64,000 bases of DNA from the human T2T-CHM13v2.0 reference genome, Homo sapiens. The notes under the pieces were generated by a model. The model was given only the letters and a program-made list of their open reading frames with translations. It made no database searches and was not told the origin of the DNA. Both the position numbers and the translations under genes were made by a program. Shown here piece after piece: positions 28,760-35,259 of this stretch. The stretch lies in NCBI RefSeq assembly GCF_009914755.1, contig NC_060941.1, one strand, 5' to 3'. Position 1 is the first letter of the stretch, and each line of letters starts with the position of its first letter.

Positions 28760-29233
28760 AAAATCTTTGGGAAAATACATTTGGCAATATTTTTTTTCAA
28801 GAGCCTTGCAAATGCTCATTACCCCTGATGCAGTCATCTCACCTTTCCAGAAACCAGCGTAAGGAAAGAATTAAAATTAGCCTAATAAAATAATCTCAAA
28901 GCTCTATGTACAAAGATGTTCAGCAGAATATTATTTATAATAGCAAAAACAGATAAAGCAATTCAAGTGTTCAACAATAGAGAGATGATAAGTAAATTAT
29001 ATGTCTGTTTGATGGAAATATTATGCAATCGTTAAAATGATGGATATGGAGAGTACGTTGGATCAAGGAAATGACACTTCCAACATAATGTTGAACAGAG
29101 AGGAGCAGCACCTGCTTATACTGTATGGTTATGGCTCTAAAAAAACCAAAAACCAAAAACCAAACCCACAAAACTATATGCGGAAAAAGATAACTGAAAA
29201 ACTGTTTTGAAGTATTAAACTCAGGATGTCTTT
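28760..29233 (+). mobile_element. Old L1ME/MC 3' fragment (target of the L1PA insertion; resumes at about 34898-34990)
   Basis: tatgtacaaagatgttcagcagaatattatttataatagcaaaa...gataagtaaattat motifs. Confidence 0.6.
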
Positions 29234-29454
29234 ATATATATATATATTTTATTATACTTTAGGTTCTAGGGTACATGTGCACAACGTGCAGGTTTGTTAC
29301 ATATGTATACATGTGCCATGTTGGTGTGCTGCACCCATTAACTCGTCATTTACATTAGGTATCTCTCCTAATGCTATCCCTCCCCACTCCCCCAACCCCA
29401 CAACAGGCCCCAGTGTGTGATGTTCCCCTTCCTGTGTCCAAGTGTTCTCATTAT

Positions 29455-33281
<3,827 letters not shown>

Positions 33282-33344
33282 TATGATGTTAGCTGCTTAT
33301 TTTCCTCATTAGTTGATGCAGTTTCTTCCTAGCATCGATGGTCT

Positions 33345-34359
33345 TTACAATTTGTCATGTTTTTGCAGTGGCTGGTACCAGCTGTTCCTTTCCATGTTTA
33401 GTGCTTCCTTCAGGAGCTCTTGTAGGGCAGGCCTGGCGGTGACAAAATCTCTCAGCATTTGCTTGTCTGTAAAGTATTTTATTTCTCCTTCACTTATGAA
33501 GCTTAGTTTGGCTGGATATGAAATTATGGGTTGAAAATTCTTTCCTTTAAGAATGTTGAATATTGGCCCCCCCTCTCTTCTGGCTTGTAGAGTTTCTGCT
33601 GAGAGATCAGCTGTTAGTCTGATGGGCTTCCCTTTGTGGGTAACCCAACCTTTCTCTCTGGCTGCCCTTAACATTTTTTCCTTCATTTCAACTTTGGTGA
33701 GTCTGACAATTATGTGTCTTGGAGTTGCTCTTCTCAAGGAGTATCTTTGTGGCATTCTCTGTATTTCCTGAATTTGAATGTTGGCCTGCCTTGCTAGGTT
33801 GGGGAATATCCTGGATAATATCCTGCAGAGTGTTTTCCAATTTGGTTCCATTCTCCCCGTCACTTTCAGGTACACCAATCAGACGTAGATTTTGTCTTTT
33901 CACATAGTCCCATATTTCTTGGAGGCTTTGTTCGTTTCTTTTTATTCTTTTTTCTCTAAACTTCTCTTCTCGCTTCATTTCATTCATTCGATCTTCAATC
34001 ATTGATACCTTTTCTTCCAGTTGATCGAATCGGTTACTGAAGCTTGTGCATTTGTCACGTAGTTCTCGTGCCATGGTTTTCAGCTCCATCAGGTCCTTTA
34101 AGGACTTCTCTGCATTGGTTATTCTAGTTAGCCAGTTGTCTAGTCTTTTTTCAAGGTTTTTAACTTCTTTGCGATGGGTTCACACTTCCTCCTTTAGCTC
34201 GGAGAAGTTTGATTGTCTGAAGCCTTCTTCTCTCAGCTCGTCAAAGTCATTCTCCATCGAGCTTTGTTCCGTTGATGGTGAGGAGCTGCGTTCCTTTGGA
34301 GGAGGAGAGGCGCTCTGATTTTTAGAATTTTCAGTTTTTCTGCTCTGTTTTTTCCCCAT
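33345..34359 (-). pseudogene. L1 ORF1p, inactivated
   Basis: ATG at 34359 (MGKKQSRK...); premature TGA at 34182-34180; frameshift near 33810 between ORFs 33688-34089 and 33345-33878; C-terminus ...QPLQKHDKL*. Confidence 0.9.
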
Positions 34360-35259
34360 CTTTGTGGTTTTATCTACCTTTGGTGTTTGATGATGGTGAC
34401 GTACAGATGGGGTTTTGGTGTGGCTGTCCTTTCTGTTTGTTAGTTTTCCTTCTAACTGTCAGAACCCTCAGCTGCAGGTCTGTTGGAGTTTTCTGGAGGT
34501 CCACTCCAGACCCTGTTTGCCTGGGTAATCTTCAATACCTGTTTGCCTGGGTTTGTGGGTTCAGCAGCGGAGGCTGCAGAACAGCGAATATTGCTGAACA
34601 GCAAATGTTGCTGTCTGATCATTCCTCTGGATGTTTCATCTCAGAGGGGTACCTGGCCGTGTGAGGTGTCAGTCTGCCCCTACTGGGGGGTGCATCCCAG
34701 TTAGGCTACTCGGGGGTCAGGGACCCACTTGAGGAGGCAGTCTGTCTGTTCTCAGATCTCAAACTCCGTGCTGGGAGAACCACTACTCTCTTCAAAGCTC
34801 AGTTGGAAACGCAGAAATCACCCATCTTCTGCGTCACTCACGCTGGGAGCTTTAGAATGGAGTTGTTCCTATTCGGCCATCTTGGAACCCCCAATTCAAA
34901 CTCAGTATGTCTTTTGGTGGTCCACATTTTATTCTTTCTACTTTTCTGTGTTTTCCAAGTTTACAGTCATGCACATGCAGAGCTTCTGAAATGGAAAGAT
35001 GATATGTCCTTTGCACAGTACTGTGGGGAATGATTGAGAACATGGAGTTACAGAGAGGCTTGGGCTTGAATTAGAGCCCAGTCACGTAGAAGGTTTGTGG
35101 CTTGGGGAAGGTCATTAAATTCTCTTATTGTCAGGTTCCCCAGCTGGGAAATGGGGACATATCACACTTAATAGGCAGGTTTTTTTTTTGAGAGTGTGTT
35201 TAATTTACTGAAATTAATGGCACATAATAGGGGCTCTGTATTTATTGAAAATGATTGAA

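What the first reader, a model, noticed from the sequence alone, without database searches (positions are those of the whole stretch)
34760..34897. LINE-1 integrated from a spliced mRNA (SpIRE97/622): the 5'UTR deletion coincides with L1 splice sites
Seen: the L1 at 29234-34897 has a native 5' end, 3' end and 17-bp TSD but is only 5664 bp; its 5'UTR is 538 nt and on the minus strand reads ...GTTTCCAACTGAG|CTTTGAAGAGAG... at 34798/34797. Established: in L1PA consensus CTGAG is followed by the donor GTACCGG (about +97/98) and CTTTGAAGAGAG is preceded by the acceptor ...TCTGACAG (about +621); joining them defines the SpIRE97/622 class of spliced integrated retrotransposed elements. Inference: about 520 nt were removed as a GT-AG intron before reverse transcription. 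The copy was therefore promoter-crippled on arrival, keeping the YY1 site CAAGATGGCC but losing most of the internal promoter, antisense promoter and ORF0 region. It records an L1 RNA-processing event rather than an ordinary deletion.
Basis: partly seen in the sequence, partly recalled or inferred. Interest (0 to 1): 0.8.

Follow-up and report, generated by a model that had tools for sequence, protein, structure and literature searches.

The report
Known spliced LINE-1 copy in ASIC2
This is an old, dead LINE-1 copy in an ASIC2 intron that was copied into the genome from a spliced LINE-1 RNA, and this very copy is already listed in a 2018 catalogue, so the reading is right but not new.

Summary
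A minus-strand LINE-1 fills window 29234-34897 between 17-bp target-site duplications. Its 5'UTR reads ...CCAACTGAG|CTTTGAAGAGAG... at 34798/34797.

In 25 unspliced relatives from the same genome, the piece missing here (median 524 nt) starts with GT in 22 and ends with AG in 23. The gap therefore falls on a donor and an acceptor to the base, apart from a 2-nt AG ambiguity in where the break is placed.

The same 23-nt junction occurs at 185 places in this genome and at 0 places for the reversed control. On a tree, spliced copies are scattered among unspliced ones. This points to a recurring RNA event, not one inherited DNA deletion.

The locus is already published as SpIRE(97/622)-109: L1PA5, hg38 chr17:33059090-33064891, ASIC2, same orientation, in Larson et al. 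2018, PMC5860796, S1 Data and S1 Table. The flanking sequence is identical to the window.

Both ORFs are broken.

Two points stay untested here. There are no ape orthologues to rule out a deletion after insertion. The 2018 paper did not detect the 97/622 spliced RNA in HeLa cells.

Verdict: correct, ordinary, already known.

The parts
34898..34914 (-). 5' copy of the target-site duplication (AAAGACATACTGAGTTT)
   Evidence: It matches 29217-29233 at 16 of 17 positions. The paper's S1 Table gives TSD 17, 1 mismatch, EN site CTTT/T.
34893..34897 (-). GAATT between the duplication and the L1 G-run: extra (untemplated) bases, or a continuation of the duplication with a 1-base indel
   Evidence: The 3' flank continues AATACT after the duplication.
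34798..34892 (-). First part of the L1 5'UTR, up to the splice donor (corresponds to L1.3 nt ~1-97). It holds CAAGATGGCC at 34875-34884 and ends ...CCAACTGAG.
   Evidence: Searches show 91-95% identity to the 5' ends of other L1 copies. One search shows that the GGGGGTTC-type start is the usual one in these relatives (36 of 37 rows have GTTC before CAAGATGG; 3 rows repeat the same places).
34797..34798 (-). Exon-exon junction (L1.3 97|622): ...CTGAG|CTTTGAAGAGAG...
34360..34797 (-). Rest of the 5'UTR after the acceptor. It includes the stretch that L1PA3 and older elements have and L1PA1/2 lack (the TCCAGAG motif and ...TTCTGCAG|CC, named in the paper's Fig 5 legend).
   Evidence: Motifs are compared. 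One search shows alignment to relatives.
34528..34560 (-). 33-nt extra piece private to this copy: an imperfect tandem duplication of the neighbouring TACCCAGGCAAACAGGGTCTGGAGTG, plus 7-8 more bases. It coincides with the unmasked gap 34529-34559 in NCBI's repeat mask.
   Evidence: This segment is 64 nt here, versus 31 nt in 24 copies and 30 nt in one (25 of the 70 other copies could be measured).
33330..34359 (-). ORF1 remnant: ATG at 34357-34359, first stop at codon 60, further stops and frame changes downstream
   Evidence: translation. One search finds Pfam Tnp_22_trimer, Transposase_22 and Tnp_22_dsRBD in the two open pieces.
29460..33280 (-). ORF2 remnant (ends approximate), broken into several open pieces of 400, 405 and 198 aa
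   Evidence: One search finds Exo_endo_phos in 31786-32988 and RVT_1 in 30461-31678.
29234..29250 (-). Decayed poly(A) tail, now an A/TA-rich tract
   Evidence: The paper's comment on this row reads 'Degenerate 3' poly(A) tail'.
29217..29233 (-). 3' copy of the target-site duplication (AAAGACATCCTGAGTTT)

Best explanation
A full-length L1PA5-type LINE-1 was transcribed from its own promoter. The spliceosome removed about 524 nt of the 5'UTR, between the GT after ...CTGAG (L1.3 G98U99) and the AG before CTTTGAAG (A620G621). The spliced RNA was then reverse-transcribed at a nick in what is now an ASIC2 intron by target-primed reverse transcription. This left a 17-bp target-site duplication and an A-rich tail.

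The new copy kept the first ~95 nt of the 5'UTR, with the YY1-type site, but lost most of the promoter. It has since decayed: both ORFs are broken and a 33-nt duplication sits in the 5'UTR.

Shown here: the junction, the GT/AG ends in relatives, the insertion hallmarks, the recurrence of the junction at many loci, and the identity with catalogue entry SpIRE(97/622)-109.

Inferred: that the piece was already missing at insertion, and that the copy was transcriptionally weak from the start.
For: - Junction and insertion hallmarks are read directly from the sequence.
- In unspliced relatives, 22 of 25 have GT at the start and 23 of 25 have AG at the end of the piece missing here; median length is 524 nt.
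- A further 31 unspliced close relatives all show the polypyrimidine-...ACAG-type acceptor, or a one-base variant, before CTTTGAAG.
- All 39 non-self hits of a 198-nt query centred on the junction align straight through it at other loci.
- The 23-nt junction word occurs at 185 places, versus 0 for the reversed control.
- On a tree of 45 spliced and 23 unspliced copies (867 columns starting 100 nt past the junction), the spliced state needs 18 changes. The shuffled mean is 19.3, 142 of 500 shuffles are as low, and at least 4 changes are forced by well-supported branches. The window copy groups with 3 unspliced and 2 spliced copies.
- The paper's S1 Data and S1 Table list this locus, with identical flanks, as SpIRE(97/622)-109, PA5, ASIC2, same orientation.
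- The paper defines the class by donor G98U99 and acceptor A620G621.
Against: - No orthologous ape locus could be examined, so a deletion after insertion is excluded only by the improbability of hitting both splice sites to the base.
- Placement of the break is ambiguous by 2 nt, because the retained upstream part and the missing piece both end in AG. GT...AG is therefore one of three equivalent placements.
- The paper did not detect 97/622 spliced cDNA or RNA from a wild-type L1.3 5'UTR reporter in HeLa cells. This splice is inferred from genomic copies, not seen as RNA.
- 3 of 25 relatives lack GT and 2 of 25 lack AG at the expected spot. These look like decay or, in one row, alignment slippage.
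- The tree's unspliced rows were chosen by similarity of their first 100 nt to the window copy. One all-spliced group of 14 has no matched unspliced sample, so the test is uneven.
Confidence: 0.93

Rival explanations
1. The splice happened one or more generations earlier. On this view the copy is the offspring of an already spliced element (a SpIRE that was driven by a nearby promoter), not the direct product of splicing a full-length element's RNA.
For: - Among the 39 nearest relatives over 798 nt downstream of the junction, 5 are spliced, 32 are unspliced and 2 cannot be classed. That is above the paper's 1.8% average.
- Only one other copy of the 70 others looked at has a tandem duplication in the same 5'UTR segment. 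It is a spliced, 5'-truncated copy at C2:125.79 Mb.
Against: - Control: the 39 nearest relatives of an unspliced copy (L014) include at least 4 spliced ones, 14 known unspliced and 21 unclassed. The excess of spliced copies is therefore not specific to a spliced query.
- The C2 copy shares 0 of the window copy's 23 rare alleles.
- The C2 duplication has another length and phase (27 versus 33 nt), and both of its units carry a change that the window copy lacks.
- On the tree, the window copy's small group holds 3 unspliced copies.
- The paper's spliced 5'UTR supports only about 7% retrotransposition.
Confidence: 0.05
2. An ordinary full-length L1PA5 inserted here and later lost about 524 nt through a genomic deletion that happens to end at the two splice sites.
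For: - No orthologue was examined, so this is not directly excluded.
- There is a 2-nt AG microhomology at the break.
- The copy has suffered other local rearrangement, the 33-nt duplication.
Against: - Both break points coincide to the base with the junction found at 184 other places and with GT...AG in relatives.
- Two nucleotides of microhomology cannot direct a recurrent deletion.
- The GRCh38 copy shown in the paper has the same junction as this T2T window.
Confidence: 0.02

Closest known systems
SpIRE97/622 class of spliced integrated retrotransposed elements (Larson et al. 2018, PLoS Biol, PMC5860796); this locus is entry SpIRE(97/622)-109
   Same: The donor, the acceptor, the size of the missing piece, the insertion hallmarks, the host gene and the orientation all agree. 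The flanking sequence printed in S1 Data is identical to the window.
   Different: There is no difference of kind. Three details differ.
- The table counts '5' 12 untemplated' bases relative to L1.3, but the GGGGGTT part is the usual 5' end of related copies, so only about 5 bases (GAATT) are extra.
- The table does not mention the 33-nt duplication at 34528-34560.
- One base differs between the GRCh38 text and this window in the ~400 nt I could see (window 34857).
SpIRE97/790, SpIRE97/853 and SpIRE97/976 (same paper; the first and third first seen by Belancio and colleagues, as cited there)
   Same: They use the same donor (G98U99) and follow the same route: a spliced L1 RNA is retrotransposed.
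   Different: They use other acceptors (A788G789, A851G852, or A974G975 in ORF1). The window copy still has the sequence downstream of position 622, including the stretch that holds the 853 acceptor.
Processed pseudogenes (retrocopies of spliced cellular mRNAs made by the L1 machinery)
   Same: An intron is missing, with an A-rich tail and a target-site duplication. This comparison rests on established knowledge and was not tested here.
   Different: Here the spliced RNA is L1's own, copied in cis, and the 'intron' lies in the element's promoter.

Membership tests
SpIRE97/622 | L1 5'UTR sequence up to the donor (...CTGAG, L1.3 nt 97) joined directly to the sequence after the acceptor (CTTTGAAGAGAG..., nt 622) | tested here: met
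   One search places the junction at 34798/34797. One search shows one continuous alignment to other spliced copies and a split alignment, with a gap of about 525 nt, to unspliced copies.
SpIRE97/622 | The missing piece begins with GT and ends with AG in unspliced elements of the same age | tested here: met
   GT in 22 of 25 and AG in 23 of 25; the acceptor context is present in 31 of 31 unspliced close relatives. The break placement has a 2-nt AG ambiguity.
SpIRE97/622 | Hallmarks of target-primed reverse transcription: target-site duplication, A-rich 3' tail, L1 endonuclease-like nick site | tested here: met
   Searches show a 17-bp duplication with 1 mismatch and a decayed A/TA tail. The base before the duplication gives CTTT/T on the bottom strand, as in the paper's row.
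SpIRE97/622 | Listed in the published catalogue | tested here: met
   SpIRE(97/622)-109, PA5, chr17:33059090-33064891 (hg38), ASIC2, Same. The flanks are identical.
SpIRE97/622 | The piece was already missing when the element inserted (same form in all species that share the insertion) | not testable with these tools
   No primate genomes other than the window's own assembly are held.
SpIRE97/622 | The 97/622 spliced L1 RNA exists in cells | not tested
   This cannot be tested from sequence. The paper did not detect the RNA from an L1.3 reporter in HeLa cells.
L1PA5 subfamily | Subfamily-diagnostic positions; presence of the 5'UTR stretch that L1PA1/2 lack | tested here: inconclusive
   The stretch with TCCAGAG and TTCTGCAG|CC is present, which shows only that the element is L1PA3 or older. 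The terminal branch is 0.056 changes per site. The label PA5 is the paper's; no subfamily classifier was run.

The most novel reading that the evidence does not exclude
This copy may not be a one-generation dead end. It and the 5'-truncated spliced copy at C2:125.79 Mb are the only two of the copies examined with a tandem duplication in the same 5'UTR segment. They could descend from one already spliced source that kept moving.

More broadly, the 97/622 class in L1PA4-5 could be about twice as large as catalogued, reaching roughly 10% among this copy's closest relatives.
Probability: 0.06. Interest if true: 0.4.

Novelty: already known. Interest (0 to 1): 0.12.

Why it matters
The copy is a textbook record of L1 RNA being spliced before it is copied back into the genome. 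The splice donor sits inside a promoter element that L1 cannot afford to lose. Nothing about this copy goes beyond the 2018 description, and it is a decayed element with no coding capacity.

Its main use is as a positive control: a reader working from sequence alone recognised a real, published class and placed its junction to the base. The side observation that the catalogue seems incomplete for older subfamilies may be worth a proper census.

Tried and rejected
- **Shared spliced lineage.** I asked whether spliced copies form their own lineage. They do not cluster: 18 changes against a shuffled mean of 19.3. Before the tree I dropped L001 and L011-L013 (repeats of places already held), L017, L033, L044 and L046 (no match to the query), and L003, L010, L024 and L036 (under 800 nt).
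- **Excess of spliced copies among nearest relatives.** 5 of 37 classable relatives are spliced. I rejected this as evidence of spliced-to-spliced descent because an unspliced control query finds at least 4 spliced among its 39 nearest relatives. The two sets overlap.
- **The duplication shared with L115.** The two duplications differ in length and phase, and L115 shares 0 of the window copy's 23 rare alleles. I judged them probably independent.
- **Loci.** I fetched 61-nt pieces around the expected junction instead.

Full report
**What is there.**
Read on the minus strand, the window holds an L1 between 29234 and 34897 (5,664 bp).
- Upstream lies AAAGACATACTGAGTTT (34898-34914) and downstream AAAGACATCCTGAGTTT (29217-29233). 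This is a 17-bp target-site duplication with one mismatch.
- Five bases, GAATT (34893-34897), sit between the upstream copy and the G-run that starts the L1.
- The L1 then reads GGGGGTTCCAAGATGGCCG... The GTTC form of this start is usual among related copies: 36 of 37 rows have it, and 3 of those rows repeat the same places.
- The ORF1 ATG is at 34357-34359.
- The tail (29234-29250) is a decayed A/TA tract.

**Test of the gap ends.**
I searched the window's own genome with the first 100 nt of the element and with 198 nt centred on the junction.

All 39 non-self hits of the 198-nt query align straight through the junction at other loci. Of the 30 loci kept from the 100-nt query:
- one is the window itself;
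- two repeat spliced places already held;
- 25 are unspliced copies whose match to the window's 5'UTR splits in two around a piece of about 525 nt;
- two match only the first part.

In those 25 unspliced copies, the piece that the window copy lacks begins with GT in 22. The exceptions read AT, GC and a one-base loss. It ends with AG in 23; the exceptions are one AT and one row where the alignment end slipped. The piece is 520-528 nt long in 16 of 25, with a median of 524.

The retained upstream part and the missing piece both end in AG. The break can therefore be drawn in three equivalent ways, and one of them is exactly GT...AG.

A second, independent set of 31 unspliced close relatives all show ...CTGTCTGACAG, or a one-base variant, before CTTTGAAG. 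Four of these I classed by eye.

**Recurrence.**
The 23-nt junction word, with one IUPAC position and up to 2 mismatches, occurs at 185 places in the genome (98 forward, 87 reverse). The word read backwards occurs at none.

I built a tree from 867 columns starting 100 nt past the junction, with 45 spliced and 23 unspliced copies. The spliced state needs 18 changes. The shuffled mean is 19.3, and 142 of 500 shuffles are as low. Well-supported branches alone force at least 4 changes.

The window copy sits in a weakly supported group of six, with three unspliced and two spliced copies. The junction therefore arose many times. This fits a recurring RNA-processing event and not one DNA deletion that was then inherited.

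Caveats on the tree:
- The unspliced rows were picked by similarity of their first 100 nt to the window copy.
- One all-spliced group of 14 has no matched unspliced sample.
- Twelve loci were left out: four repeats of places already held, four with no match and four under 800 nt.

**It is already in print.**
Larson et al. 2018 (PLoS Biol 16:e2003067, PMC5860796) is the source. I read sections 6-9, 11, 14, 16, 17, 21 and 22, both parts of S1 Table, and search passages of S1 Data.

The paper defines SpIRE97/622 by donor G98U99 and acceptor A620G621, a 524-nt deletion in L1.3 numbering. It reports 116 such copies in hg38, from L1PA1 to L1PA6.

S1 Data prints 'Clone 109; PA5; SpIRE(97/622)-109: Filled site spans chr17:33059090-33064891'. 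Its flanks and 5'UTR match. The S1 Table row reads PA5, length 5639, ASIC2, Same orientation, CTTT/T, TSD 17, '5' 12 untemplated, 1 mismatch', degenerate poly(A).

**How it works, and what is only inferred.**
The paper shows the following.
- The spliced L1.3 5'UTR drives a reporter about 7-fold over vector, against about 267-fold for the intact one.
- An element with the spliced 5'UTR moves at about 70% of wild type with an added CMV promoter, but at about 7% without it.
- The donor lies in the core of a RUNX3 site that L1 needs.

Applying this to an L1PA5 copy is inference.

The paper did not detect the 97/622 spliced product from the wild-type reporter in HeLa cells, by northern blot or RT-PCR. 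The splice is deduced from genomic copies.

That the antisense promoter and ORF0 lie within the lost piece is my recollection. The text I read says only that both are in the 5'UTR.

**Present state of the copy.**
ORF1 stops at codon 60 and has further stops. ORF2 is in pieces of 400, 405 and 198 aa. Pfam finds the ORF1 domains, the endonuclease and the reverse transcriptase in those pieces. The copy is dead.

**Was the parent itself spliced?**
Among the 39 nearest relatives over 798 nt downstream of the junction, 5 are spliced, 32 are unspliced and 2 cannot be classed. This is more than the published 1.8% average.

As a control, I searched with the same region of an unspliced copy (L014). Its 39 nearest relatives include at least 4 spliced copies, 14 known unspliced and 21 that I did not class. 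The two sets overlap. So the excess belongs to this branch of the family, or to the sampling, and not to spliced queries.

The window copy carries a 33-nt imperfect tandem duplication at 34528-34560. Only one of the 70 other copies looked at has a duplication there: a 5'-truncated spliced copy at C2:125.79 Mb. Only 25 of those 70 could be measured in this segment.

That second duplication is 27 nt and in another phase, and both of its units share a change that the window copy lacks. The copy also shares none of the window copy's 23 rare alleles. I take the two duplications as independent, though not with certainty.

**Not done.**
No ape orthologues are held, so a deletion after insertion is excluded only by improbability. 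No subfamily classifier was run.

**Verdict.**
The element is already known down to the locus, so interest is low.

Noticed in passing
genome-wide (one search list); e.g. G000 C2:107.37M, 145.21M, 169.79M, 185.83M, 228.49M; C3:29.36M; C9:8.21M, 101.07M; C18:54.78M: The junction word has 185 places in T2T-CHM13, against 116 catalogued copies in hg38. The catalogue required more than 95% identity to an L1.3-based 100-nt probe.

Of the 100 places listed, 45 carry the older CCAACTGAG form, while S1 Table has 42 rows labelled PA4, PA5, PA6 or PA4-6. By rough chromosome offsets, about 20 of the 45 have no catalogue row. The catalogue therefore looks incomplete for older subfamilies.

The mapping is by approximate coordinates only, and 85 places were not listed.
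   Followed up: partly
window 34528-34560 (minus strand): A 33-nt imperfect tandem duplication in the 5'UTR, private to this copy. It explains the unmasked gap 34529-34559 in NCBI's repeat mask. It is not mentioned in the catalogue row.
   Followed up: yes
L115 (G000 C2:125795600-125796760): An L1 whose 5' end is only AACTGAG followed by CTTTGAAGAGAG.... It looks like a spliced copy truncated 7 nt before the junction, and it has its own 27-nt tandem duplication in the same 5'UTR segment as the window copy. A probe needing 50 nt on each side of the junction would miss it.
   Followed up: partly
window 34857: One base differs between this T2T window (T on the minus strand) and the GRCh38 text of the same copy printed in the paper's S1 Data (G). 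I could see only about the first 400 nt of that text.
   Followed up: no
window 34886-34897: The catalogue counts 12 untemplated 5' bases for this copy, measured against L1.3. The GGGGGTT part matches the usual 5' end of related copies, so only GAATT is really extra. GAAT may even continue the target-site duplication with a one-base indel.
   Followed up: yes
tree: L041, L050, L051, L053, L055, L058, L060-L062, L066, L067, L069, L074, L079: Fourteen spliced copies form one well-supported group (SH-aLRT 95) with short end branches and no unspliced member. This may only reflect that no unspliced copies of that younger branch were sampled, or it may be a lineage of spliced elements. It was not tested.
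   Followed up: no
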